42,235 nt of DNA from a virus. A program made the translations under genes and the position numbers. Shown here piece by piece: positions 2,571 through 35,951 of the stretch (positions within the stretch are counted from its first letter, which is position 1; each line of letters starts with the position of its first letter). The stretch is from UHGV virus genome UHGV-1993760; one strand, 5' to 3'. Under the pieces are notes generated by a model. It ran no database searches. It saw nothing but the letters and a program-made list of their open reading frames with translations, and was not told the DNA's origin.

Positions 2571-3039
2571 AGTATTTCAGCTCCAGTGTGAACGTTTTGT
2601 TCTTCGGCGCACCGCCGGGAAGAAAGGACGTGGTGTTATCTGAATAGGCGGTTGCCACGAAATACCCCATCACATCACCTGTGCTCGAGACCAGAAGATG
2701 CGGGGCCGGATTGTCATCCACCATCTGAACCAGTGTATCAAGGGCATCCATTCCCACACCGTCACGAAATCCCGCGTGCGCCATACCTTCAAGGGTTATT
2801 GTTCTGGCCCCCTTGCCGGTATACTGCAGCAGATCGTTTTTTCCGATAAGCTGTTGTTCATCCCATCGCCATTCCATCGTGCGCTTCATGGCGTTATAAG
2901 CAGCAGTATCAATACTGAATTCAAACTCACCAAACGACAGCATGACGCGGGAGGCGACATCCGTTAATGAGCCCACCGCGTCCCATGCTTCGCGCTCAAG
3001 CCGGTTTACACCCCAGCCCAGCAAATCCACCATATTCAC
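2545..3039 (-). CDS. tail protein U-like
   Basis: 164 aa ORF directly downstream of the tape measure gene, the position of P2 gpU; weak pattern resemblance only. Confidence 0.5.
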   Translation of the reverse strand: MNMVDLLGWGVNRLEREAWDAVGSLTDVASRVMLSFGEFEFSIDTAAYNAMKRTMEWRWDEQQLIGKNDLLQYTGKGARTITLEGMAHAGFRDGVGMDALDTLVQMVDDNPAPHLLVSSTGDVMGYFVATAYSDNTTSFLPGGAPKNKTFTLELKYYGEKLADY

Positions 3040-4688
3040 CCCCAGAATGCATCACCATCGGTCATGCGGGAACGCTGACCAAAATTAATATCTCCCAGAT
3101 TTTTCGTTACCCTGTCTGCCAGTTGTCCGGCATCCTCGCCGGGCTTCTGAGTGATGTTAAATTCCGCCCGTATCTGATACGTGGGTTTTACTTCCACCTG
3201 GCTGACACTGCCGGGGGTATACTGAAGAGCCGAGAGAGGATCCGAATTACCCTGCCCCTGAACTGCTGCAGGTAGTCCGTCAATATAGGTGCGGGATTTC
3301 TCTTTTATCGCCTTAAAATCAGGTTCTTCTTTCGGCCCCAGCAGAGGGTCGAGAAATGCATCAAACTTTTTATCGTCATGATTCCAGGGGAGATAACCGC
3401 GGGTGTCTTTATAGGCCTGTACAACCTGTTTTGTCAGGTCAGGATTTTGCCTGAGCAGTTCATCAAACCATTCACCCTGACCGTTTTTCTGCGCCACTGC
3501 TCTCGCCAGCTCCGGCGACCCCATTTTTGCCAGATACTCCAGCACTTCCCGTCGGTCCTCTCGCGGATCATCCGCCAGCCCCCACTCAATGGCTTTTTGT
3601 GTAATTCCGGCAAGAACTTTTCCAAATTTCCACATCCAGGCAGCCATGTCGATCAGCGCCGGCAGGGCATCATCACGAATAAATGCCCGGATTTTTTCCA
3701 GCCCACCATTCTTAAACCAGGCCGCAAGGTCATCCGTCACCTGTTGAATATGTGGGGCAAGTTCATTACCCAGCTGTCCGCTGATTTCATCAATGGAAGA
3801 ACTCAGAACATTACGGAGATTTGACAGTGCCACATGTCCCTGAACCGCGCCATCAGCCCCTGCCTTTGTCACCAGGTTATAGCGTTTCTGCTCACTGATA
3901 AGCTCCCGATAAGTTTTCCCTGACAGACGCATCCAGGTCAGAATTTTATTGGCCTCACCACCGAACAACGCATCAGCCATCCCCGCCGCCTGCTGCTCAT
4001 TCTCAACCTGCAGTAAGCGATCAAACAAAAATTCGACCTGCTCCTGGTTGCTTTTTCCGGCCATTACGCCCGCTTTCAGCCCCAGTTTACCGAATACCTC
4101 CTGAATGGCTCCTTTGTCCGTGGCACCATTATCATCGTCAAAAACCTTGTTCCGGTATTCCTCAAACAGATCACCGATGTTTTCACCGTTTAACCCCATC
4201 TGACGGCCCAGTGAATCCCACGCCGCATAGGTTTCATAGTCCACCCCGTAGCTCCGCGCTATCCCTGCACGCTCTGCTGTTTCCGAATTCCGGTTCAGTA
4301 CCGCACTTGCACCTGCTGCCAGCGTAAGCCCGGAACCAACCGAAAGCCCCAGCCCGGTCTTAAGAACGGTCCCGGCCCACCCTTTCCAGCGAGCCAGACG
4401 TTCCGCGCGCGCCAGCTTACGGTTAAATTTGTCCTGCTCTCCGGTGGCATCATGAATTTTTTTACCCAGCTTTTCATACTGCTTTCGCAGATCAGTAATA
4501 TCCTGTCCAGCCAGAACGCCAGCCTGAATTTTTCGTTTCAGTACGTCCTGCTGGCGTGTCAGACGAGCCACTTCCTGTGTTGCCCCTGATAATCCGTGCT
4601 TCAACCCATCAACCGATTTTTTCCACGACGGATCTATCGTGCCTCCGATCCGGATATTCGCTTTAAGGTTATCGCCCACCGTTGCCAT
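3036..4688 (-). CDS. tail tape measure protein
   Basis: 550 aa, helical/Gly-Ala-rich, directly downstream of the E/E' chaperone pair whose frameshifted product overlaps its start. Confidence 0.7.
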   Translation of the reverse strand: MATVGDNLKANIRIGGTIDPSWKKSVDGLKHGLSGATQEVARLTRQQDVLKRKIQAGVLAGQDITDLRKQYEKLGKKIHDATGEQDKFNRKLARAERLARWKGWAGTVLKTGLGLSVGSGLTLAAGASAVLNRNSETAERAGIARSYGVDYETYAAWDSLGRQMGLNGENIGDLFEEYRNKVFDDDNGATDKGAIQEVFGKLGLKAGVMAGKSNQEQVEFLFDRLLQVENEQQAAGMADALFGGEANKILTWMRLSGKTYRELISEQKRYNLVTKAGADGAVQGHVALSNLRNVLSSSIDEISGQLGNELAPHIQQVTDDLAAWFKNGGLEKIRAFIRDDALPALIDMAAWMWKFGKVLAGITQKAIEWGLADDPREDRREVLEYLAKMGSPELARAVAQKNGQGEWFDELLRQNPDLTKQVVQAYKDTRGYLPWNHDDKKFDAFLDPLLGPKEEPDFKAIKEKSRTYIDGLPAAVQGQGNSDPLSALQYTPGSVSQVEVKPTYQIRAEFNITQKPGEDAGQLADRVTKNLGDINFGQRSRMTDGDAFWG

Positions 4689-26994: not shown

Positions 26995-27178
26995 GTCTGT
27001 AACAACCGAACTGATAATCTGCCAGACCCGCCATAACAAGCTGAGTCAGTATTAACTGGCAGCGTTCGCGTGAAAGGTAGGTATTCTGCGCAATTTCCCC
27101 GACGGTCGCCGGTTCGGTGACGCTTAATTCATTAAATACCACTCTGGCGGTTTCGGTCATATCCTGCTGTTTTAGCAT
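26981..27178 (-). CDS. small hypothetical protein
   Basis: About 65 aa from ATG 27178 (MLKQQDMTETARVVFNEL...); own terminator; divergent from the DUF262 operon. Track ORF extends further upstream into likely non-coding sequence. Confidence 0.4.
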   Translation of the reverse strand: MLKQQDMTETARVVFNELSVTEPATVGEIAQNTYLSRERCQLILTQLVMAGLADYQFGCYRRLPQ

Positions 27179-27431
27179 GTCTTTTTCCCTTTTCTGGTTA
27201 ACGTGACACACCAATAACTCTTGTCTGAAAAGCCAGCAAGCTGAAAGACCGGTATTCGCAACCACCAGCACGTTTAACGTACTGCGCCGTTTTTCGGACA
27301 CAAAAAACCGCCTGGCGGCGGGTTTAAGCTGTGTGGCGTAGTAACCACTCTTAACACGATATAATATTTTTTGCGTACGCGTTATAGTTTTCTTACAATC
27401 TATTTCCAACTCCAATTAAAGGAACAGTGAT

Positions 27432-28589
27432 ATGACCACACTCAAAGAACTCAAAGAAGAGCTTGCTCAGATTCAAGATGAAAACGCGAAAAATAGAAAA
27501 AAAGCTGAAATTGCAGCCTTGGTCACTTCTGCCGACAACGAGATTAGGCTTGCTCAGAGAAATATTGGATACAACGTACGTGAATGGACCGTTGAATTAA
27601 TTGTACAAAAGTATGGCAATAATCTTGAAACTGACAAAAACGAACTTTTTATTCCTGATTATCAACGCGATTACAAATGGGATATCAAAACAGCCTCTCG
27701 ATTCATCGAAAGTATATTATTAGATTTTCCAATCCCGTACCTCTACATCTCCGACGTATTTAATGAAGATCCTGAGTTGGATGGTCGTGTAGAAATTATT
27801 GACGGTTCACAAAGGATTCGCTCAATTTACTACTTTTGGAACAATCAGTTTGAATTGAAAGACTTAAAAGAACTCAAAAGTTTAGAGGGCTTCAAATTTT
27901 CAGATCTTTTGGCTAGCCGCCAGAGGCGATTTTTAAGGGCATCACTAAGATTTATTGAATTGAAAGGTGATGTTGAGGAGCAACATAGAAGAGATTTATT
28001 CGAAAGAATAAATTCAGGTGTTAAGAGACTGGAAGCGATGGAGGTTAGACATGGTTCAGATGCGGCCACTTCAATTTTCTATAGGGATGTTGTGACTCCT
28101 TGCTCAATAAATCCACTTTTCGCTAGTCTAGCTCCATTATCAGACCGGAAGCGTTCGAATGGCGATCATCGTGAGTTAGTTTTGAGATTTTTTGCATACT
28201 TAAATGATTTAGAAAATTATAAGGGTTATGTCGCTCCTTTTATTGACAATTATCTTAATGTTCAGGCCGAAAGGGTCACACAACAAGATGTTGACAAATT
28301 TAAACATGATTTTGAAAGCATGCTTGCTTTTGTAGATGCTCATTTCCCTATGGGGTTTAAAAAGACACCAACAAGCAAAACCACCCCCCGTGCTAGATAC
28401 GAAGCCATAGCAGTGGGAACTGCTCTTGCCTTAAAAGCCAATCCACATCTACAGGCTCCGGTTATTCCTGTAGGAGACTGGCTGTTTGGGGAGGAATTTG
28501 AAACCATAGTTACTGCTGATAGTGCCAACAACACCAGCCAACTCAAAAACAGAATATTTTATGTCAAAGATAAATTATTAGGAATGTAA
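27432..28589 (+). CDS. DUF262 (ParB/Srx-fold, GmrSD N-terminal-like) domain protein
   Basis: 385 aa; ...FIPDYQRDYKW... (aa 73-83) and ...EIIDGSQRIRS... (aa 121-131) match the DUF262 signatures as I recall them (QR.Y.W and DGQQR-like); no recognisable C-terminal HNH/DUF1524 motif; AAAGGAA RBS; AT-rich gene. Confidence 0.65.
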   Translation: MTTLKELKEELAQIQDENAKNRKKAEIAALVTSADNEIRLAQRNIGYNVREWTVELIVQKYGNNLETDKNELFIPDYQRDYKWDIKTASRFIESILLDFPIPYLYISDVFNEDPELDGRVEIIDGSQRIRSIYYFWNNQFELKDLKELKSLEGFKFSDLLASRQRRFLRASLRFIELKGDVEEQHRRDLFERINSGVKRLEAMEVRHGSDAATSIFYRDVVTPCSINPLFASLAPLSDRKRSNGDHRELVLRFFAYLNDLENYKGYVAPFIDNYLNVQAERVTQQDVDKFKHDFESMLAFVDAHFPMGFKKTPTSKTTPRARYEAIAVGTALALKANPHLQAPVIPVGDWLFGEEFETIVTADSANNTSQLKNRIFYVKDKLLGM

Positions 28590-28591
28590 CT

Positions 28592-29281
28592 ATGAGTTTG
28601 ATTGATTTAAGAGATGAATACGAAGAAAGAGCAAGAGATATTATGGAATTGCTTTCTCTTGCGTCATCTTTAGAGGCTCAGACTCAGCAGTTAGATCAGC
28701 AAACGCATAAAGATGAAATAGAATCAAATACCCTTAGGGTTAACATTTTAAAATCATCCGTGCACATGATGCTGTACAATCAGGTTGAAAACACTGCCAG
28801 AGGATGCATTGAGTCAATTTATGACCATTTGCAAGATAATGAAGTAAATTACGCATCACTCAGGGAGAAATTCCAAGTAAATATCTTGCACCGTATCATT
28901 TCAGATAATGAATCGGGAAAATCTCTTTATCAAAAAATTGGTTCCGATATATCTAAAAGGATCATTTCAGCCTCATTAAACATACGTAAAGAATTCAATG
29001 GTAATGTTTGCAAGTCTGTATTGCACAAAATAACACAAGCTTACGGAATAACTGTTGCAAACTCACCAGAGTGTAGAAATGGTGTTGACTTAGATTTACT
29101 TAAAGATATCAGAAATGAGCTGGCACATGGAAGTACCAGCTTTTCTAAAAAAGGTCAAATAGACCCTTTAGAAGAAGTCAAATCGAGGTCAGAAAGAATT
29201 GATCTATATTTGCGTTTATTAATCAACTCAACAGAAAATTATATTACCTCTAACGGGTATTTATCCCCTCAACATGTCTGA
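28592..29281 (+). CDS. HEPN-motif protein (predicted RNase-like effector), translationally coupled to the DUF262 gene
   Basis: 229 aa; ATG 2 nt after the DUF262 stop; mostly helical; C-proximal ...DIRNELAHGS... (nt 29111-29128) fits the HEPN Rx4-6H motif. Confidence 0.45.
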   Translation: MSLIDLRDEYEERARDIMELLSLASSLEAQTQQLDQQTHKDEIESNTLRVNILKSSVHMMLYNQVENTARGCIESIYDHLQDNEVNYASLREKFQVNILHRIISDNESGKSLYQKIGSDISKRIISASLNIRKEFNGNVCKSVLHKITQAYGITVANSPECRNGVDLDLLKDIRNELAHGSTSFSKKGQIDPLEEVKSRSERIDLYLRLLINSTENYITSNGYLSPQHV

Positions 29282-30290
29282 TAAATGTTTCCCCTATTAT
29301 CTGACCAATTATAGGGGGAACAGCATTTCCAATCATTGTCCCCAATTTTTGGAATGAAAAAGGCGTCTCCTTGTCAAGGAATTTATAATCCATTGGAAAG
29401 GATTGCAAAATCGCAGCTTCACGCAAAGTTATGGCGCGATTTTGCTCAGGATGGCCAAATCGTCCATTTCCATATCCATAACACTGGGTAGTTATCGTAG
29501 GGCTAGTATCGTCCCAAACCATCCGTCCATAAACGCTTTTATAGGTAGCACCTGAATTCTTTTTATGACAGTCTGCTCTAATTTCTTCAGGCCAGTCATC
29601 CCACGTACCACCAGGTAAAGAATGCATGATTCGTTTAAGATTGATATCCATCAATTTAGGCGAACGATGCAAGGGATCGCTTTCCAGCTTCTCACCTGCC
29701 CCTACTTTTGGCAACCTACCAATAGCATCCTTAACAGTAACTTTACGGCTAACTTTTTTTTGATCAAGGCTGATCGGCCCCAATTGGGAACCAATTAGAA
29801 TTAATCTACGTCTATTTTGAGGTAAGCCATACTCAGAACATCTTACAACGTCGTACCACAAATGATATCCAAGAGTCTTTAATGCACTAACAAACCCTTC
29901 AAAAACCTTATGGTTTCTAAGTTGAGGAACATTCTCCATCGTCACAAGCTCTGGCATGACATCACTTACAAGCCTTTGAAACTCATATAACAAACGCCAC
30001 TTTGTATCGTCTTTACGGCTATTTGGATTACGATACTTGGAAAACGGTTGGCAAGGAGCACATCCAGCAAGCAATCTAATATTTCCTTCCTTGAACATAG
30101 CAGACACATCGCAGGATTGCAGTTCTGTAACTGACTGATTAATGAACTGCGTTAAAGGATTATTGCTCTCAATAGCAAAACGGCAGGATTCATCAATATC
30201 AATACCATGAGAAACCTCAATCCCGGCTTTTTTTAGCCCAAAAGTTAAGCCCCCCGCACCACAAAAAATGTCTACTGCCTGAATGTTCAC
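29250..30290 (-). CDS. DNA (cytosine-5)-methyltransferase
   Basis: 346 aa; motif I DIFCGAGG, motif IV GCAPCQPFS, ENV, QNRRR, C-terminal GNAVPP; GTG start with GGAG 6 nt upstream; 3' end overlaps the convergent HEPN gene by about 32 bp. Confidence 0.9.
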   Translation of the reverse strand: MNIQAVDIFCGAGGLTFGLKKAGIEVSHGIDIDESCRFAIESNNPLTQFINQSVTELQSCDVSAMFKEGNIRLLAGCAPCQPFSKYRNPNSRKDDTKWRLLYEFQRLVSDVMPELVTMENVPQLRNHKVFEGFVSALKTLGYHLWYDVVRCSEYGLPQNRRRLILIGSQLGPISLDQKKVSRKVTVKDAIGRLPKVGAGEKLESDPLHRSPKLMDINLKRIMHSLPGGTWDDWPEEIRADCHKKNSGATYKSVYGRMVWDDTSPTITTQCYGYGNGRFGHPEQNRAITLREAAILQSFPMDYKFLDKETPFSFQKLGTMIGNAVPPIIGQIIGETFIRHVEGINTR

Positions 30291-30722: not shown

Positions 30723-30979
30723 CAGCGCAGTACCTCCTGCACCAGTTTTTCGAACTTTCCAACTTTGGTTTCCAGCTCTGCCACACAATCCACCAGCTCA
30801 TCCACTGCTTTTTGTGCGCGGTGTTTCGCCTGCATCAGTTCCCTGAGCGCTGGCACCATATCCTTACGAATGGCATCTTTTGTTACGCCTGTCTTTTCCA
30901 GTTGTTCCGCCTGTCGTAACATTTCCTGTGCCTGTTTACGTAATTGTTCAGGCGTAAAAGTCATGGTCTGGTTGTTCAA
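30722..30979 (-). CDS. small hypothetical coiled-coil protein
   Basis: 85 aa ORF between helicase and Q; stop overlaps the Q start (TGATG). Confidence 0.4.
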   Translation of the reverse strand: MNNQTMTFTPEQLRKQAQEMLRQAEQLEKTGVTKDAIRKDMVPALRELMQAKHRAQKAVDELVDCVAELETKVGKFEKLVQEVLR

Positions 30980-32367
30980 AAGAAACGCTCCATCTTACTG
31001 CTGTCGGTTCGCTTATTGCTGTATCTGCGCGGCTGGGGCTGCTGCATTGGGGTGGAAAGAATCTGTGCGCTTTCCTGGTCTACGGGCAGAAAATGTCCGT
31101 TATAAAAACGCCGGTAAATCGTCCCCAGAGAACCGTTACGTTGTTTCGTGATATTGATTTCTGCAATGCCTCTGGCCTGCGTATCCGGGTTGTACACTTC
31201 ATCCCTGTAAAGCATCAGAATGATGTCTGCATCCGCCTCTATTTCTCCGGAATTTTTCAGGTCTGAGTTCATAGGGCGTTTATTGGGCCTGGACTCCACA
31301 CCACGGGAAAGCTGGCTCAGCGCAATCAACGGAAAACCACCGGATTTTGCCAGGCCTTTAAGCCCCTTTGAGATTTCACCCACGGCAAGGTCATGACGCC
31401 CCGTGGTTCGGGTTTTTATCAGCCCGAGATAATCAACCACCACCAGCGCCGTTTCCGGATGTTTAATCAGGTGATGTTTCGTTGTTGCGCATATCTCATC
31501 AATGGTCAGGTTCGCCTGGTCCACCATCCAGATATTGCGCCCGGTCATCCGCCCCACTCCTTGTGAGAAACGTGCCCAGTCTTCGTCTTCAAAGTGAGTG
31601 ACAGATTTCAGGCGTGATACCGGCATTCCTCCAGCCGCAGATACCATGCGTTCACCAATCTGGATGTTCGCCATTTCCATTGTGAACAGAAGAACACCAT
31701 GCCCCTGCTCAGTCACCTTGTCGATGATATCCAGCGCCAGTTCGGTTTTGCCCATCGAAGGACGTGCAGCAATAAATACCAGGTCGCCAGGCTCCATGCC
31801 GCCCGTTTTTGCGTCCAGTTCATCAATACCGGTCATCAACGTCCTGGATTTCTCCAGCCCCTGATTCCGGCATTCAACACGCTCAACCACTTCCGGAAGC
31901 ACATCATCAATATGTACCGGCTGAATAACGCCCTTTTCCGTCGACAATGAGGCCATCATGTTCTGCGCATCCTTCAGAGCATCTTCAGCTGCTTCACAGG
32001 TATGCGCATCACGTAATTTCTGCAGCGCCTCATTCAGTGTTTTTTCTGCATCACGCAATGCGGCATTACGCCGCAACGCCGTAACATAGTGCTCCAGTGA
32101 CGACTTCACCCAGGTTTTGCGCCCGGTATCAGTAATCACCGGGGCAAGTTCCGGCATCTCATTACACAACAGCACAGGGTCAATCACGCCTGAAACACGG
32201 GCCTGTCGGCAGATGCCTGTGTAGATATCCCGATACGCTCGTACAGAAAAAACGTCTGCCGGCAATGTGGCCAGAATATCCATCACTTCATGATCTGCCC
32301 CTCGCAGAAAAAACGCGCCAATGACAGCGCCTTCCAGGTCATCGTTACGCCAGACAGGAGAAGTCAT
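30976..32367 (-). CDS. replicative DNA helicase (DnaB family)
   Basis: ATG at 32367 (ATGA overlap with the loader gene); Walker A ...ARPSMGKTELALD...; DnaB-like C-terminal RecA fold pattern. Confidence 0.85.
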   Translation of the reverse strand: MTSPVWRNDDLEGAVIGAFFLRGADHEVMDILATLPADVFSVRAYRDIYTGICRQARVSGVIDPVLLCNEMPELAPVITDTGRKTWVKSSLEHYVTALRRNAALRDAEKTLNEALQKLRDAHTCEAAEDALKDAQNMMASLSTEKGVIQPVHIDDVLPEVVERVECRNQGLEKSRTLMTGIDELDAKTGGMEPGDLVFIAARPSMGKTELALDIIDKVTEQGHGVLLFTMEMANIQIGERMVSAAGGMPVSRLKSVTHFEDEDWARFSQGVGRMTGRNIWMVDQANLTIDEICATTKHHLIKHPETALVVVDYLGLIKTRTTGRHDLAVGEISKGLKGLAKSGGFPLIALSQLSRGVESRPNKRPMNSDLKNSGEIEADADIILMLYRDEVYNPDTQARGIAEINITKQRNGSLGTIYRRFYNGHFLPVDQESAQILSTPMQQPQPRRYSNKRTDSSKMERFF

Positions 32368-33254
32368 GCTGCCACACCTCCGATATGTGCACGGTAACTT
32401 TCCCAACCAAACACCAGGCAGTTACGCCCACCATCAGTAACGCGATCCACAATCCGTTCACCAATGGACTCCTTAAGTTGGTCAAATGTCAGATTACTAA
32501 TCAAAATTGTCGGTAAAACGCTTTCGTAACGTGCATTGATGATTTCCTGCAGGATGGTTATCTCTGTTGGCGTACCGAACTGCACACCAACCTCATCGAT
32601 GATGAGCAGGTCCAGCGATACAAAATGGTCAATAACTTCATCTTCAGTGCGTTCAGAATTGTGACGCCAGGTATTTTTCACAGCGCGGGTCAGTCGCATG
32701 ACATCCGTAATTTCGACAGTCGCCAGGTGGTGGCGAATAATATTTTTTGCCATTGATACAGCCAGGTGATTTTTCCCGGTACCGCAATTGCCAATCATGA
32801 TCATGCTGGTACCCGCAGCAAGACACTTCTCCCATGAACTGGCATAGCGCCGACAAGCCTCAAGATTTCTCTGTGCGTCAGCATTCACAGCCTGGTAGTT
32901 CTCAAACTCGCAGTCCTGGAAGCGGCGGGCAATACCAGCTCTGTCAAGTAATTCATGAACTTTCAGGATGCGTAACGCCTCCTGTACCTGATCCAGTTCA
33001 TTCGCAATGCAGGTCGGGCAACCAGACACCCGTTTGATGGTTTCCCCACGAACATCTGGCCCTTTCAACACCAGACGTGTGTATTTCCCGTGTTTCTCAC
33101 ACTCAGCAGTTTCCTCGCTTGTCAGCCAGTGTTCACAGCGCCACGGACGCTTCCCGGCACGGGCAAACTGCATCTCCTCCTCCAGTTCCGCCCTGCGGTT
33201 GAGCAATTGCGCTTTATCGTGTTGTGCGTAGTGTTTTTTTAACTGTTCAAACAT
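32364..33254 (-). CDS. helicase loader / AAA+ ATPase (DnaC-IstB-like; lambda P functional analogue)
   Basis: 296 aa; Walker A-like GNCGTGKNHLA, Walker B LLIIDEVG; N-terminal Cys cluster. Confidence 0.65.
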   Translation of the reverse strand: MFEQLKKHYAQHDKAQLLNRRAELEEEMQFARAGKRPWRCEHWLTSEETAECEKHGKYTRLVLKGPDVRGETIKRVSGCPTCIANELDQVQEALRILKVHELLDRAGIARRFQDCEFENYQAVNADAQRNLEACRRYASSWEKCLAAGTSMIMIGNCGTGKNHLAVSMAKNIIRHHLATVEITDVMRLTRAVKNTWRHNSERTEDEVIDHFVSLDLLIIDEVGVQFGTPTEITILQEIINARYESVLPTILISNLTFDQLKESIGERIVDRVTDGGRNCLVFGWESYRAHIGGVAA

Positions 33255-33273
33255 TGTTCATCATCTCGAAAAA

Positions 33274-34251
33274 TCACCAGTTGAAGTTCGTTGAACCGTA
33301 GTCCTGCTCACTGAATCCCGAGATCGGGAGGCCGGTAGTTCGCCCACCTCCGGGAGCGGCTGGCTGTTGCCAGGATTCCTCAAAATGACGATCGGGTCCA
33401 AAGAACGTCGCAGCCTGCTTCACGAACTGTGTGCCGGTATTTCCTGTTGCACGTACCCAGGCGGCATACCGCTTCACGCCATCAAGCATGACTTCAGGTT
33501 TTATTCCCTCCCTGAGACGGGCTTTCCAGGCTTTGAAGGCTGCTGACTTGGAATTACCACCAGCACGTTTGGGATATTCCTGCCAGGCCTGTTCAAATTC
33601 CGGTGAATATTCCTGTCGGGCAGAACGCGCTGGTGCAGACGCGTCAGCGGATGCGCCAATAGTGTTTTTAGTCTCCGTTGTAATCTCTGTAGTAATCTCT
33701 GTATTTGTATCAACATTCGGCGTATCCCCTGTTCCGTTATGACGTTGGGGGGTGTTCCGTTTTAACGTAATAGCTGTATCGCTGATTGCGTTATTGCTGT
33801 TACTTTCTGGCGAAACAGAAGAAGGAGTAGTAATGGCAGCAATTGCCTGTGGGTTGATCCCGACAAACAAAATATTGCTGCATTTCACACCATCGAGCAT
33901 TTCCACCGTGCGTAAATCCAGGGAAATAAACCCGGCATCACGAAGGCGCTTCAACGCATCCGCGGTTTCCCTTTTCCCGAAACCAAACTGCTCAGCAAAC
34001 GCCTGATAACTTCTTTGCAGCTTGTCCCCCTGAAAACGCTTGCGATATCCCAGCAAAGCCCCGGTATGTTCATCCCTGACTTCTGTCGGGCGGTACCAGT
34101 AAACGATCTCTGAGAGCAGAGCGATAGCGGTCGCATCCGGACGACCACTGGGTAGCCGAATATGTTTCCACCAGTTCGCTGGTGTGACATTGCCGGAAAT
34201 ATTAATTTGACCAATAGCCATAACTTCCGGTGTTGGAGCGTAACGACTCAC
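33274..34251 (-). CDS. putative replication initiator (lambda O position)
   Basis: 325 aa ORF upstream of loader and helicase; contains internal iteron-like DNA repeats and a TEITTEITTE low-complexity linker; family not confidently recognised. Confidence 0.45.
   Translation of the reverse strand: MSRYAPTPEVMAIGQINISGNVTPANWWKHIRLPSGRPDATAIALLSEIVYWYRPTEVRDEHTGALLGYRKRFQGDKLQRSYQAFAEQFGFGKRETADALKRLRDAGFISLDLRTVEMLDGVKCSNILFVGINPQAIAAITTPSSVSPESNSNNAISDTAITLKRNTPQRHNGTGDTPNVDTNTEITTEITTETKNTIGASADASAPARSARQEYSPEFEQAWQEYPKRAGGNSKSAAFKAWKARLREGIKPEVMLDGVKRYAAWVRATGNTGTQFVKQAATFFGPDRHFEESWQQPAAPGGGRTTGLPISGFSEQDYGSTNFNW
33680..33760. repeat. candidate replication origin iterons inside the initiator gene
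   Basis: Tandem GTAATCTCTGTA x2 (33680-33703) followed by two copies of TGTTCCGTT (about 33730 and 33752) and an AT-rich stretch to about 33810. Confidence 0.35.
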
Positions 34252-34472
34252 ACGGCACCTCCCAGGCGTTTAAACATTTTTCCGGACTGAAACGCCACCA
34301 GTGGGTAACTGATGGTGTAGTTACGCCCCAGTAATTCACACACGACTTTCTGGCTTTCGGTACTGACCAGGCAAACCCGCAGAACATGGCCGTTGCTGGT
34401 GGCAAACCACTGCCCCACACGGGGGCAACGGTTGTATCGGTGATACAGGGAATTAACGACGCGGCGAATCAT
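34248..34472 (-). CDS. small hypothetical protein
   Basis: 74 aa from ATG 34472 (ATGA overlap with the upstream stop). Confidence 0.3.
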   Translation of the reverse strand: MIRRVVNSLYHRYNRCPRVGQWFATSNGHVLRVCLVSTESQKVVCELLGRNYTISYPLVAFQSGKMFKRLGGAV

Positions 34473-35131
34473 GGGCGCACCTCCCATTGATTACGGCTGA
34501 AAGCGGTGTGACTGGGGCTGTTTTCTGCCTCATGGAATGCTTCAATACAGCTCTCGTAGTACCGCATTGTGCGCAGACTTAACCCAAGCTGAAGCATCAT
34601 CAGCCCATCAAGGGTAATGTAATAACCACGCAGGGAATCGCCATACACGTGGTAAGTACCCGGTATGAAATTACGGGAGAAGAATTCACGCGAGCAGTTC
34701 AGATACTCGATTTTGTCGACGATGTTCTGGTGCATGCGCTTAAAGTGGCAGGCAACATGCAGGGAGAAAATAACAGCTTTGCCGTTGACGACTTCGATTT
34801 TCAGGTATGGGGAAGTTGGGACTGTAGCCATGATGGCAGCCTCCGATAACAGTGAATTACCTTCACCACCGGAAACGCCAATTTCGCTGGTGGTGAACTG
34901 AACGGGGTTGGCGTAACCGGCGTTATCGGAAACCGGCGCACCTTTCGGTGCCCCCGCCCAGCCCACCATAATTTGGGTGTGCGCAGACGCAGACGATAAA
35001 AAAGACGCTGGTGCGTCATATATCGCCGATAACATTTCCAGGACGCCAATCCCGGCACCCGCTTTATAAGGTGCCAGAACAGTGTAACGTCCCGAAATTG
35101 CAGAATCAATATTTAGGCTTGAAACATTCAT
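34469..35131 (-). CDS. hypothetical protein
   Basis: 220 aa from ATG 35131; the N-terminal 78 codons of track ORF 34469..35365 overlap the Rha-like gene and look non-coding. Confidence 0.35.
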   Translation of the reverse strand: MNVSSLNIDSAISGRYTVLAPYKAGAGIGVLEMLSAIYDAPASFLSSASAHTQIMVGWAGAPKGAPVSDNAGYANPVQFTTSEIGVSGGEGNSLLSEAAIMATVPTSPYLKIEVVNGKAVIFSLHVACHFKRMHQNIVDKIEYLNCSREFFSRNFIPGTYHVYGDSLRGYYITLDGLMMLQLGLSLRTMRYYESCIEAFHEAENSPSHTAFSRNQWEVRP

Positions 35132-35155
35132 ATGATTACTGGTATTTTTACTAAC

Positions 35156-35245
35156 GCAAATGTTCTTGGATGTTACTGGCTTACTTCTCTGTGAAGTTGC
35201 CTTTACCAACGTTGAGCGAGCCGGGTCACTACCCGGCTTTTTTTC
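35156..35245 (+). ncRNA. candidate OOP-like antisense small RNA (promoter plus terminator on the strand opposite to the early-right operon)
   Basis: Plus-strand -35 TTGAAA (35119-35124), 18-bp spacer, -10 TATTTT (35143-35148); plus-strand hairpin ccgggt-cact-acccgg (35221-35236) followed by T7 (35238-35244) overlapping the stop of the Rha-like gene. Confidence 0.3.
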
Positions 35246-35951
35246 ACCGCTGCCAACCAATAACCTGAAATAACCCCATTTTCGGGTGATACCAGCGAGT
35301 CCCTCGCGGTTCTGCTTCCTCCATAACCCGATAAAAAGCAGCCATAAACGGTTCCACAGCAACAATTGCGCGACGTGACAACAATCCGTCCGGCGTCATG
35401 AACTCATGGGTGTCTGTAGGAATTTGATAGGCGTTCACCAGATTGCGGCATTTATCATCTGACAAACCGGTTTTCGCTTTCAGTTGGCGATATCCGGCAT
35501 AGCCCTCACGAATGGTGCCCTTTTTGATTTGCTCAACTGTTTCGGCAACGTGGCTGACTTTTTCTTCCACCTGAGTGATCCGTTTCTGCTGGCGAACGGC
35601 TTCAAGAGCCATCGCAGCAACCATTTCGATTTCGCTCATTGGCTTACGGATCTGCTCTTCCAGTTCGCGCCAGCGATCTACCAGGCGGGCTGTGAATTCG
35701 GGACAAAGCTGTGCGACGACAATGATGCTGTCGCGTTTGCCTCGTTCACCTTCGAAAAGATAATGCTTACTTTTTTGAGTTAAACCTAACCCATTGATAT
35801 TTTCAGAAATCCCCATTGGGGGAAGCTGAATAATCCTTCGTTCAGCAAGGCGCTCAATGGATTGTTTCACTTTGTCATGGCGGCTGCCCACCAGCTCTGC
35901 GATTTCAACGCTGGTCATGGATGCTTTGCCGTTAAAAATTGTTGTATTCAC
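35244..35951 (-). CDS. Rha-family phage regulatory protein (possible antirepressor), in the cII position
   Basis: GTG start with GGAGA 6 nt upstream; N-terminus ...MTSVEIAELVGSRHDKVKQSIERL... resembles the Rha N-terminal domain as recalled. Confidence 0.5.
   Translation of the reverse strand: MNTTIFNGKASMTSVEIAELVGSRHDKVKQSIERLAERRIIQLPPMGISENINGLGLTQKSKHYLFEGERGKRDSIIVVAQLCPEFTARLVDRWRELEEQIRKPMSEIEMVAAMALEAVRQQKRITQVEEKVSHVAETVEQIKKGTIREGYAGYRQLKAKTGLSDDKCRNLVNAYQIPTDTHEFMTPDGLLSRRAIVAVEPFMAAFYRVMEEAEPRGTRWYHPKMGLFQVIGWQR

What the first reader, a model, noticed from the sequence alone, without database searches (positions are those of the whole stretch)
33670..33810. Iteron-like direct repeats and AT-rich tract inside the putative initiator gene: candidate origin
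GTAATCTCTGTA occurs twice in tandem, followed by two copies of TGTTCCGTT and an AT-rich stretch, all within the O-position gene. The layout parallels lambda ori inside O. The repeats also encode a TEITTEITTE linker, so they may be dual-purpose.
Basis: partly seen in the sequence, partly recalled or inferred. Interest (0 to 1): 0.35.

Follow-up and report, generated by a model that had tools for sequence, protein, structure and literature searches.

The report
Phage replication origin inside initiator gene
The repeats sit in the linker-coding middle of a prophage replication-initiator gene and look like a lambda-style replication origin; one part, a 12-base tandem repeat, is conserved at the DNA level in phage initiator genes across many bacterial phyla.

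Summary
GTAATCTCTGTA x2 lies at 33680-33703 and TGTTCCGTT x2 at 33730 and 33753. Both are inside a 325-aa initiator gene (33274-34251, minus strand) upstream of DnaC-like and DnaB-like genes.

The origin reading is supported by comparison, not by experiment, and the parts need re-labelling.

- The TGTTCCGTT copies belong to 22-23-nt phased, type-specific iterons. Two are good and two are weak, spanning 33706-33796.
- The GTAATCTCTGTA tandem (coding strand ACAGAGATTACT, 33667-33703) is not a type-specific iteron. It is a 12-mer array kept at nucleotide level across phyla and across at least four initiator N-domain classes.
- Synonymous codons in that array are almost fixed, the non-synonymous middle base is free, and a few genes read the motif in another frame.
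- The array sits where lambda and P22 have their AT-rich unwinding region. It is the least stable DNA in the gene.

Among 51 close E. coli relatives, third-codon-position diversity is zero across 33682-33771.

The kind is known from lambda O, P22 gene 18, SPP1 gene 38, TP901-1 rep and pSK41 Rep. The conserved 12-mer array appears not to have been described. No replication experiment exists for this element.

The parts
33274..34251 (-). Replication initiator gene, 325 aa, GTG start. It contains the candidate origin.
   Evidence: ORF. phrog_270 'replication initiation protein', E 4.5e-75. No Pfam or NCBIfam family reaches threshold. The same CDS is annotated in E. coli UMNF18.
33820..34251 (-). 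Codes for the N-terminal winged-helix domain (aa 1-144), the presumed iteron-binding domain.
33616..33819 (-). Codes for the disordered interdomain linker (aa 145-212). The origin elements lie within it.
   Evidence: pLDDT below 50 for residues 145-212. This is the variable part of alignment A1, apart from the T[YN]TEITTEITTE block.
33774..33796 (.). Phased unit 0, a weak iteron-like repeat. Coding strand: CAATAACGCAATCAGCGATACAG.
   Evidence: Its ACG core is 23 nt from that of unit 1 (sequence). Weak match only, and polymorphic among close relatives.
33751..33773 (.). Iteron 1. Coding strand: CTATTACGTTAAAACGGAACACC, with dyad CGTT-AA-AACG.
   Evidence: (D4). Aligns with the iterons cctccTACGTTgaAACGTAac of the Serratia, Yersinia and Acinetobacter-phage relatives. 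Invariant among 51 close relatives.
33728..33750 (.). Iteron 2. Coding strand: CCCCAACGTCATAACGGAACAGG.
   Evidence: It is read in a different codon phase from iteron 1 (TLKRN versus RHNGT), so it is a DNA repeat and not a peptide repeat.
33706..33727 (.). Phased unit 3, a degenerate iteron abutting the 12-mers. Coding strand: GGATACGCCGAATGTTGATACA.
   Evidence: Its ACG core is 22 nt from that of iteron 2. It resembles the last unit of Rosenbergiella L007, GATACGCCGAAAAGTGAGACGTAT.
33667..33703 (.). Conserved 12-mer array, proposed as the unwinding element. Coding strand: T ACAGAGATTACT ACAGAGATTACA ACGGAGACTAAA.
   Evidence: Tandem repeat. Least stable DNA of the gene. Unpaired in predicted single-strand folds. 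Nucleotide-level conservation across phyla and across initiator classes. Positionally equivalent to the AT-rich regions of lambda and P22. Zero diversity among close relatives, but copy number ranges from 1 to 4.
33274..33615 (-). Codes for the helical C-terminal domain, presumed to recruit the loader or helicase.
   Evidence: phrog_26426, phrog_1701 (DnaD-like) and phrog_9327 hits on aa 180-301. 90-94% DNA identity to the 'O' genes of Stx phages and phiP27, which have other N-domains.
32364..33254 (-). DnaC-like helicase loader gene.
   Evidence: IstB_IS21 at 1.8e-15. phrog_50 at 2.9e-83.
30976..32406 (-). DnaB-type replicative helicase gene.
   Evidence: DnaB_C at 8.9e-73. phrog_19 at 3.9e-118.

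Best explanation
Window 33667-33796 is the replication origin of this lambdoid prophage. It is embedded in the linker-coding middle of its own initiator gene.

**Proposed mechanism**
1. *(inferred)* Dimers of the initiator's N-terminal winged-helix domain bind the 22-23-nt phased iterons. There are two good copies at 33728-33773, each with a CGT(T)..AACG dyad, flanked by two weaker in-phase units. Binding forms an O-some-like complex.
2. *(inferred from position, low stability and homology of layout)* That complex destabilises the adjacent array of 12-mers, ACAGAGATTACT x2 plus one degenerate copy (33667-33703). The array plays the role of lambda's AT-rich unwinding region.
3. *(inferred)* The C-terminal domain then brings in the phage DnaC-like loader and DnaB-like helicase, which are encoded immediately downstream.

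**What is shown and what is speculation**
- *(shown)* The same DNA also encodes a disordered linker (...TLKRNTPQRHNGTGDTPNVDTNTEITTEITTE...). This is a place where protein constraint is lax enough to host cis-acting sites.
- *(speculation)* The 12-mer is conserved base by base, so it is probably recognised sequence-specifically. It could be read as duplex or as a single strand, by the initiator or by a conserved replisome protein, rather than merely being easy to melt.
For: **1. Gene identity and neighbourhood.** The gene matches phrog_270, and DnaC-like and DnaB-like genes lie downstream.

**2. Domain layout.** wHTH N-domain, disordered linker at residues 145-212, helical C-domain. The best structural match is the RepA_N plasmid initiator 4pta.

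**3. Family-wide phasing.** In 57 loci from many phyla, the 120 nt upstream of the 12-mers show an autocorrelation peak at lag 22-23 (0.45 and 0.34) and at 44-45 (about 0.39), against a baseline near 0.25.
- 52 of 57 loci have their best lag at 22 or 23.
- There is no such peak in the N- or C-domain coding controls.
- 22-23 is not a multiple of 3. In Acinetobacter phage YMC-13-01-C62 one repeat is read in three frames: YHPPTLE, TTLLRS and VPPHTLKR.

**4. Nucleotide-level constraint on the 12-mer.** The test used a protein-level anchor only, on 30 genes.

| Codon | Observed | Background share | P |
|---|---|---|---|
| ACA (two positions) | 30/30 each | 35% | 2e-14 |
| GAG | 24/24 | 37% | 6e-11 |
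| ACT | 26/30 | 18% | 5e-16 |
| ATT | 12/12 | 42% | 3e-5 |
| AAT | 12/12 | 64% | 5e-3 |

- The non-synonymous middle base of the I/N/T codon varies freely.
- Six genes keep the DNA motif in another reading frame, giving YKDY or YRDY peptides.
- The motif never occurs in 31.6 kb of N-domain coding DNA.

**5. Independent scan.** The pattern ACAGAGANTACNACAGAGANTAC hits at least 119 viral contigs, giving 106 unique contexts.
- 99 of these 106 contexts were assigned to initiator-like ORFs of four N-domain classes; the 23-nt phasing and class-specific repeats were checked in those with a full 120-nt upstream segment.
- Their C-domains also differ.

**6. Positional homology with proven origins.**
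- Lambda has iterons spaced 20, 24 and 23 nt, followed by an AT-rich region.
- The annotated P22 ori has iterons followed by tandem ACAAAAGACAATAT.
- Proteins with a lambda-O-like C-domain carry the 12-mers exactly where lambda has DTKDTITKEKRKDY.

**7. Physical properties.** The array is the least stable 40-mer in the gene and sits at the 99.2nd percentile of the window. It is unpaired in single-strand folds.

**8. Close relatives.** Across 51 unique E. coli sequences, third-position diversity is 0.0 over 33682-33771, against 0.05-0.23 in the N-domain coding part.

**9. Literature.**
- Lambdoid ori lies in the middle of O. Two iterons plus the AT-rich region suffice for unwinding and for in vitro replication, and O binds the AT-rich single strand (PMC7466680).
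- The ori of pSK41 Rep lies in its linker-coding centre (PMC5703833).
Against: - No experimental evidence exists for this element or, as far as I could find, for any member carrying the strict 12-mer.
- In this window the iterons are degenerate. Only two copies are convincing, and the 23-nt periodicity is not significant without the prior from relatives.
- The 12-mer copy number varies from 1 to 4 among close relatives. This shows slippage and tolerance of dosage.
- 22 of 81 family genes lack the strict motif.
- Base-by-base conservation is more than a simple unwinding element needs, so the assigned role may be incomplete or wrong.
- The protein shows no sequence membership in the lambda O or RepA_N families.
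Confidence: 0.75

Rival explanations
1. The features descend from an origin but no longer work here. The prophage may be defective or may use another origin, and the degenerate iterons are a relic.
For: Only two well-matched iterons are present, whereas relatives such as Serratia L004 have four clean copies. Nothing tested here shows that the prophage is inducible.
Against: - The gene is full length and intact, and the loader and helicase genes are intact too.
- The iteron and 12-mer stretch is the diversity minimum among 51 close relatives. That points to ongoing purifying selection on the DNA.
- Two iterons plus the AT-rich region suffice in lambda (PMC7466680).
Confidence: 0.1
2. The phased repeats are binding sites for the winged-helix protein, but they serve another cis function and the origin lies elsewhere. 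That function could be autoregulation or a transcriptional roadblock within the early right operon.
For: Family members are often annotated as GntR, ArsR or 'transcriptional regulator'. Intragenic operators would also be conserved at the DNA level.
Against: - The layout matches experimentally mapped origins: lambda, P22, and by annotation TP901-1.
- The sites are always followed by the least stable tract.
- No promoter-like site was found in the region.
- The gene always sits with helicase or loader genes.
Confidence: 0.07
3. The repeats are only coding low-complexity sequence. Replication slippage produced a Thr/Glu-rich flexible linker with no cis-acting role.
For: The region encodes a disordered linker. 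The 12-mer copy number is polymorphic, from 1 to 4.
Against: - Synonymous positions are nearly fixed across phyla while a non-synonymous position is free.
- The motif is kept even when read in another frame.
- The 22-23-nt repeats are read in different frames.
- Third-position diversity is zero among close relatives.
Confidence: 0.03
4. The 12-mer is constrained at the mRNA or translation level, or it persists as a shared recombination joint for swapping N- and C-domain modules. Candidate RNA-level roles are a pause that lets the nascent N-domain act in cis, or an RNA-binding site. On this view it is not an origin element.
For: Codon-level conservation is equally compatible with an RNA signal. 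The mosaic junction between this gene and the Stx-phage 'O' genes falls exactly in the 12-mers.
Against: - No Rfam match.
- No significant RNA structure (z = -1.45), and the 12-mers are unpaired.
- The motif survives frame changes, which would alter any codon-based pause.
- A recombination joint alone would not impose purifying selection across phyla.
- Its position equals the unwinding region of lambda and P22.
Confidence: 0.05

Closest known systems
ori-lambda inside gene O of phage lambda and the lambdoid Stx phages (933W, P27)
   Same: - The origin lies in the middle of the initiator gene, in the part encoding the link between the N-terminal DNA-binding domain and the C-terminal recruiting domain.
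- The iterons are phased about two helical turns apart: 20, 24 and 23 nt in lambda, 23, 23 and 22 nt here.
- Each iteron has a dyad.
- An AT-rich, easily melted tract follows immediately downstream in the coding direction.
- The gene lies in the early right operon after the cro and cII-like genes.
   Different: - The initiator has no detectable sequence match to Phage_rep_O.
- The iteron sequence is unrelated, and only two copies are well kept.
- The AT-rich tract is a base-by-base conserved 12-mer array rather than a loose A-rich run.
- The partners are a DnaC-like loader plus a phage DnaB-type helicase, not lambda P.
P22 ori inside gene 18, followed by gene 12 (DnaB-type helicase)
   Same: - The origin is annotated inside the initiator gene.
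- The iterons (TTTACCGnATCGGTAAAAC) are followed by a short tandem, ACAAAAGACAATAT x2. This resembles the ACAAAGAnTACT variants of the 12-mer seen in Firmicutes and Rickettsiales.
- The phage encodes its own DnaB-type helicase.
   Different: - P22 gp18 has a lambda-O-type N-domain.
- The tandem has a 14-nt period and is not the strict ACAGAGAnTAC motif.
- There is no DnaC-like loader gene.
SPP1 oriL inside gene 38 and the TP901-1 ori inside rep (orf13)
   Same: - The initiator has a DNA-binding N-domain, a linker and a C-domain.
- Short direct repeats are followed by an AT-rich N/T/K-coding tandem inside the linker-coding DNA.
- TP901-1 rep is annotated 'replication protein, experimental'.
- That both origins were mapped inside these genes is my recollection of Pedre 1994, Missich 1997 and Ostergaard 2001. 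I did not read these papers here.
   Different: The N-domains differ, and only degenerate versions of the 12-mer are present.
RepA_N plasmid initiators (pSK41 Rep and relatives)
   Same: - In pSK41 the NTD binds four Rep boxes located centrally within rep.
- The central domain encoded by the ori acts as a dispensable linker (PMC5703833).
   Different: - There is no RepA_N Pfam match.
- These are plasmids of Gram-positive bacteria.
- No 12-mer array is known there.
- The C-domain binds primase.

Membership tests
Lambda-type origin embedded in the initiator gene (functional kind) | The cis elements lie inside the initiator ORF, in the DNA coding for the link between the DNA-binding N-domain and the C-domain. 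| tested here: met
   The repeats at 33667-33796 fall within the coding region for residues 145-212, which are predicted disordered between two folded domains.
Lambda-type origin embedded in the initiator gene (functional kind) | An array of three or more iterons with roughly two-turn phasing and internal dyad symmetry. | tested here: inconclusive
   Four in-phase units are spaced 23, 23 and 22 nt, but only two are well matched. Periodicity in the window alone gives P about 0.01 with the lag fixed in advance and 0.14 at any lag. Across relatives the signal is clear: 52 of 57 loci have their best lag at 22-23.
Lambda-type origin embedded in the initiator gene (functional kind) | An AT-rich, easily unwound tract directly adjoining the iterons on the downstream side. 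| tested here: met
   33667-33711 is 33% GC. It holds the least stable 40-mer of the gene, at the 99.2nd percentile of the window. Its position matches lambda and P22.
Lambda-type origin embedded in the initiator gene (functional kind) | The initiator binds the iterons and the fragment supports initiator-dependent replication. | not testable with these tools
   This needs EMSA or footprinting and a replication assay.
Lambda O protein family (Pfam Phage_rep_O) | Sequence match of the N-domain to the family profile. | tested here: not met
   No Pfam hit at E <= 0.01. At E <= 10 the only hits are weak HTH_36 and NirdL-like_HTH matches, both far below their cut-offs. The gene is therefore not filed as a lambda O homologue by sequence.
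RepA_N plasmid initiators | RepA_N domain profile match, with the origin inside rep. | tested here: not met
   [not shown]
PHROG 270 'replication initiation protein' | Full-length profile match. | tested here: met
   E 4.5e-75 over residues 2-317.
Origin cassette defined here: phased type-specific repeats followed by an ACAGAGAnTACn tandem in the linker of a 'YW-helix' winged-helix initiator | Two or more tandem ACAGAGAnTAC units in the Thr-Glu frame, directly downstream of 22-23-nt phased repeats, inside an initiator ORF. | tested here: met
   Window 33680-33702 holds two exact units, preceded by the phased units. The same arrangement is seen in 59 of 81 family genes, and it was seen in the viral contexts inspected among 106 unique ones.

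The most novel reading that the evidence does not exclude
The tandem 12-mer ACAGAGAnTACn may be a previously undescribed, sequence-specific core element of a very large class of phage, prophage and some plasmid origins embedded in winged-helix initiator genes.

- It is conserved base by base from Enterobacterales and Acinetobacter to Bacillota, Chloroflexota, cyanobacteria and Rickettsiales.
- It is shared by initiators with different N-domains, different iterons and different C-domains.
- That independence from the type-specific parts suggests recognition by something common. Candidates are the invariant core of the winged-helix domain acting on single-stranded DNA, or a universal replisome component such as helicase, primase or SSB.
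- On this view it is a portable 'open and load here' signal, and it would also serve as the joint at which origin-plus-N-domain modules are swapped.
Probability: 0.35. Interest if true: 0.7.

Novelty: new variant of a known kind. Interest (0 to 1): 0.5.

Why it matters
**For this prophage.** The result pinpoints the likely origin to about 130 bp. It also tells which bases to mutate, by synonymous recoding, to separate the protein's function from the function of the DNA site.

**More generally.**
- Origins of most temperate phages are unmapped.
- A short DNA signature, 22-23-nt phased repeats followed by ACAGAGAnTAC tandems in the linker of an initiator gene, would let origins be predicted directly from sequence in thousands of phage and prophage genomes from many phyla.
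- It makes a specific question testable: what reads the 12-mer?
- It gives a clean example of overlapping protein and DNA codes. The same DNA repeat is translated in three frames, and synonymous sites are frozen.
- It gives a mechanistic reason why N-domain-plus-iteron modules and C-domain modules recombine exactly at this point.

Tried and rejected
- **Literature string searches.** Searches for the 12-mer and its peptides (ACAGAGATTACT, ACAGAGAATACT, TEITTEITTE, TNTENTTENT and others) found only unrelated primer or sequence coincidences. A keyword search found no paper describing this family or motif.
- **Rfam.** No match in 33000-34600 at E <= 1.
- **Single-strand folding.** RNA and single-stranded DNA folds of 33655-33800 are not significantly structured, z about -1.4. 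An RNA element or a hairpin origin is therefore unsupported.
- **DnaA boxes.** None within the gene, and the count across the window is at chance level.
- **Promoter and terminator scan.** Nothing in 33200-34500.
- **GC skew.** It simply follows gene orientation, switching at the divergent cI/cro-like region near 36-37 kb, and says nothing about the origin.
- **PDB sequence search.** A profile of the family gave only spurious weak hits.
- **NCBIfam.** No family.
- **Small plasmid as an independent replicon test.** The 16-kb Vagococcus plasmid carrying the N-domain family also has a second rep gene, so it is uninformative.
- **Treating the TGTTCCGTT pair as significant on its own.** Rejected: comparable chance pairs abound in the same 1.1 kb.
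- **Reading the 12-mers as the type-specific iterons.** Rejected: the same 12-mer accompanies initiators with different N-domains and different phased repeats.
Full report
**1. What is there**

The finding lies inside ORF 33274-34251 on the minus strand (325 aa, GTG start).
- The ORF matches PHROG 270 'replication initiation protein' over its whole length, E 4.5e-75.
- No Pfam or NCBIfam family reaches threshold.
- Directly downstream on the same strand are a DnaC-like loader (32364-33254) and a DnaB-type helicase (30976-32406).
- Upstream are small ORFs, an Ash/Rha-like gene, and a divergent cro/cI-like pair near 36 kb.

This is the O position of a lambdoid early right operon. About 220 complete E. 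coli genomes carry most of the gene at 90-99% identity, always on chromosomes. The window is therefore an E. coli-type prophage.

**2. The observation**

- GTAATCTCTGTA is present twice in tandem at 33680-33703.
- TGTTCCGTT is present at 33730 and 33753, as the core of a 16-nt pair spaced 23 nt.
- On the coding strand the 12-mers read ACA GAG ATT ACT ACA GAG ATT ACA ACG GAG, which translates as TEITTEITTE.
- The 12-mer tandem exceeds chance: 0 of 100 shuffles reach the observed count.
- The TGTTCCGTT pair alone does not exceed chance.
The really AT-rich and least stable tract is the 12-mer array itself: 33% GC, at the 99.2nd percentile of instability in the 42-kb window.

**3. The protein**

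An AlphaFold model built from 37 homologues gives three parts:
- a confident N-domain, residues 1-144, pLDDT about 85-95, with winged-helix topology;
- a disordered stretch, residues 145-212, pLDDT below 50;
- a helical C-domain.

**4. Relatives**

A distant blastn of the N-terminal half found Acinetobacter phages. They matched only across 33663-33769, which is the repeat region.

In Acinetobacter phage YMC-13-01-C62 the homologous initiator carries three copies of GTACCACCCTCCTACGTT at 23/22-nt spacing, followed by ACAGAGACTACTACAGAGAATACTACAGAT. Because 23 is not a multiple of 3, the same DNA repeat is translated as YHPPTLE, TTLLRS and VPPHTLKR. The repeat is therefore a DNA feature.

In the window, likewise, iteron 1 is read as TLKRN and iteron 2 as RHNGT.

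The N-domain family (motifs LSEIVYWYR, DKLQRSYQ) is very large. It occurs in Enterobacterales, Acinetobacter, Marinomonas, Bacillota, Chloroflexota, cyanobacteria, Rickettsiales and others. In alignment A1:
- the N-domain is conserved;
- the following linker is variable;
- a block T[YN]TE[INT]TTE[INT]TT is nearly invariant;
- the C-domains differ in kind.

**5. Phased repeats are a family trait**

I anchored 57 non-identical loci on the 12-mers and examined the 120 nt upstream.
- Mean autocorrelation is 0.45 at lag 22, 0.34 at lag 23 and about 0.39 at lags 44-45, against a baseline near 0.25.
- 52 of 57 loci have their best lag at 22 or 23.
- Equal-sized pieces of N-domain and C-domain coding DNA from the same genes show no peak.

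The repeat sequences differ between lineages. Many contain a dyad, for example TACGTTnnAACGTA in Serratia, Yersinia and Acinetobacter, and CCGAAAATTCGG in Marinomonas. This is what one expects of type-specific binding sites for a dimeric winged-helix protein.

The window has four in-phase units with ACG cores at 33791, 33768, 33745 and 33723. The two central units are well matched (TTACGTTAAAACGGAACA and CAACGTCATAACGGAACA). The outer two are weak.

**6. The 12-mer is constrained as DNA**

I found the peptide T[EK][INT]TT[EK][INT]T with a protein-level anchor only, in 30 non-identical genes from many phyla. The codons are almost fixed.

| Position | Observed | Background share in the same genes | P |
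|---|---|---|---|
| Thr, positions 0 and 4 | ACA 30/30 each | 35% | 2e-14 |
| Glu | GAG 23/24 and 24/24 | 37% | 2e-9, 6e-11 |
| Lys | AAG 6/6 twice | 33% | 1e-3 each |
| Thr, position 3 | ACT 26/30 | 18% | 5e-16 |
| Ile | ATT 12/12 twice | 42% | 3e-5 each |
| Asn | AAT 13/13 and 12/12 | 64% | 3e-3, 5e-3 |

- The non-synonymous middle base of the I/N/T codon varies freely.
- A DNA-anchored count on 58 loci gives the same picture.
- Six genes keep the DNA 11-mer in a different reading frame, producing YKDY, YRDY or YREY peptides.
- The 11-mer never occurs in 31.6 kb of N-domain coding DNA.

The selected object is therefore the nucleotide sequence ACAGAGAnTACn repeated in tandem.

**7. The 12-mer is independent of initiator type**

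- Of 106 unique contexts, 99 were assigned to initiator-like ORFs, and the 12-mer sits in the part that follows the N-terminal domain.
- At least four N-domain classes are involved: the window type (11 contexts), GLNEAIVLQQxxYW (49), RPIAYYPxL...YW (25), and others with a YW helix (14).
- The C-domains also differ: lambda-O-C-like, Phg_2220_C and DnaD/DnaB_2-like.
- In the examples printed for each class the upstream repeats differ between classes, and the best lag is 22-24 in all but a few of the contexts that could be scored.

The Stx-phage PPyecE 'O' protein is a case in point. It has a different N-domain and different repeats (TTTCCCGAAA and GGGAAAC types) but the same 12-mers.

**8. Comparison with proven origins**

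| System | Layout | Source |
|---|---|---|
| Lambda | Four iterons spaced 20, 24 and 23 nt inside O, then GACACAAAAGACACTATTACAAAAGAAAAAAGAAAAGATTAT | |
| P22 | Annotated ori in gene 18: iterons, then ACAAAAGACAATAT in tandem | |
| SPP1 gene 38 | Repeats, then an AT-rich tandem in the linker, with only degenerate 12-mers | |
| TP901-1 rep | Same layout as SPP1 gene 38 | |

- Proteins with a lambda-O-like C-domain carry the 12-mers exactly where lambda O reads DTKDTITKEKRKDY.
- Lambdoid origins lie in the middle of O. Two iterons plus the AT-rich region suffice for unwinding and for in vitro replication, and O binds the AT-rich single strand (PMC7466680).
- In pSK41 the Rep N-domain binds four Rep boxes in the centre of rep, and that central part encodes a dispensable linker (PMC5703833).

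The window's arrangement is iterons 33796 to 33706, then the 12-mers 33703 to 33667, read in the coding direction. That is the lambda order, with the 12-mer array in the place of the unwinding region.

**9. Close relatives**

Among 51 unique E. coli sequences:
- The stretch from iteron 1 through the 12-mers is the diversity minimum of the gene. Third-position diversity is 0.0 over 33682-33771, against 0.05-0.23 in the N-domain coding part.
- The linker just upstream (33790-33850) is polymorphic.
- The number of exact TACAGAGATTAC units ranges from 1 to 4.

**10. Mechanism proposed**

Steps marked *shown* rest on the results above. Steps marked *inferred* rest on analogy.
- *Shown:* a winged-helix initiator gene whose disordered-linker DNA holds phased, type-specific repeats. 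These are followed by the least stable tract of the gene, and that tract is a nucleotide-conserved tandem.
- *Inferred:* N-domain dimers bind the iterons and form an O-some-like complex.
- *Inferred:* this complex opens the 12-mer array.
- *Inferred:* the C-domain recruits the DnaC-like loader and the phage DnaB helicase.
- *Speculative:* the 12-mer is read sequence-specifically, as duplex or as a single strand, by a factor common to all these systems.

**11. Rivals and caveats**

- Coding-only slippage is contradicted.
- An RNA element lacks support and is hard to reconcile with the frame shifts.
- A regulatory, non-origin role for the sites cannot be excluded without experiments.
- A decayed origin cannot be excluded either, but it fits poorly with the diversity minimum.
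- In this window the iterons are few and imperfect.
- 22 of 81 family genes lack the strict 12-mer.
- Nothing here has been tested at the bench.

**12. Verdict**

The origin interpretation is supported by comparative evidence, with the parts re-labelled as described above.

The kind is known: an origin embedded in the linker-coding part of a winged-helix initiator gene, as in lambda, P22, SPP1, TP901-1 and pSK41. This version differs in its initiator family and in having a conserved, sequence-specific 12-mer array where the model systems have a loosely AT-rich tract. I found no description of that array in the searchable literature.

Noticed in passing
window 33274-33702, compared with L164 (LC567835) and L165 (phiP27): There is a mosaic joint here. 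The C-domain half of the gene is 90-94% identical to the 'O' genes of Stx phages that have a different N-domain and different iterons. Identity begins exactly in the 12-mer array, so the array looks like the recombination joint between N-domain-plus-iteron modules and C-domain modules.
   Followed up: partly
window 33680-33703; loci L084-L163: The copy number of the exact TACAGAGATTAC unit varies from 1 to 4 among 51 close E. coli relatives: L134 has 1, most have 2, L127 and L143 have 3, and L138 has 4. The flanking iterons are invariant.
   Followed up: yes
The 99 contexts that could be classified lie in initiator-like ORFs of at least four N-domain classes; in the examples inspected, each class has its own repeats at about 23-nt phasing upstream.
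   Followed up: partly
loci L018, L023, L025, L030, L031, L072: In these relatives the DNA 12-mer is kept but read in another frame, giving YKDY, YRDY or YREY peptides. Lambda O has KDY at the equivalent place. The 'KDY' and 'TEITTE' peptides seen across such initiators may therefore be two readings of one DNA signal.
   Followed up: partly
plasmid hits H182-H203; L287: The N-domain family also occurs on plasmids.
- Rickettsiales (Megaera) plasmid proteins annotated 'DnaA-like'.
- A Protochlamydia plasmid where the gene sits at the record start.
- Nostoc megaplasmids.
- 40-45 kb Bacillus cereus-group plasmids, probably phage-plasmids.

The one small plasmid I examined (Vagococcus, 16 kb) has a second rep gene, so it is uninformative.
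   Followed up: partly
window 34248-34487 (minus strand): A small ORF of 79 aa (phrog_1153, unknown function, E 2.8e-43) overlaps the initiator's start codon by 4 nt, which suggests translational coupling. E. coli relatives have one to three small genes here.
   Followed up: no
window 34469-35365 (minus strand): The mechanical ORF of 298 aa combines an Ash-family match (aa 94-186) and a Rha-like match (aa 201-281). The true start is uncertain. It also overlaps ORF 35244-35951.
   Followed up: no
window 29250-30290 (minus strand), within 26000-30000: This ORF has motifs typical of a C5 DNA cytosine methyltransferase (DIFCGAGG, ENV, QxRxR in the translation). It sits in a low-GC block, 0.39-0.42 against 0.50 for the window. 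It may be a moron or part of a restriction-modification-like cargo. It was judged from the translation only, with no profile search run.
   Followed up: no
L165 (phiP27 gene L17), locus positions about 2800-3050: The phiP27 initiator has the same C-domain but an HTH N-domain. It carries a different set of intragenic repeats (TCAGAATCTGA-type dyads, encoding PSDSEPSKSEPSESE) and no 12-mer array. The cassette is therefore not universal among initiators that share this C-domain.
   Followed up: no
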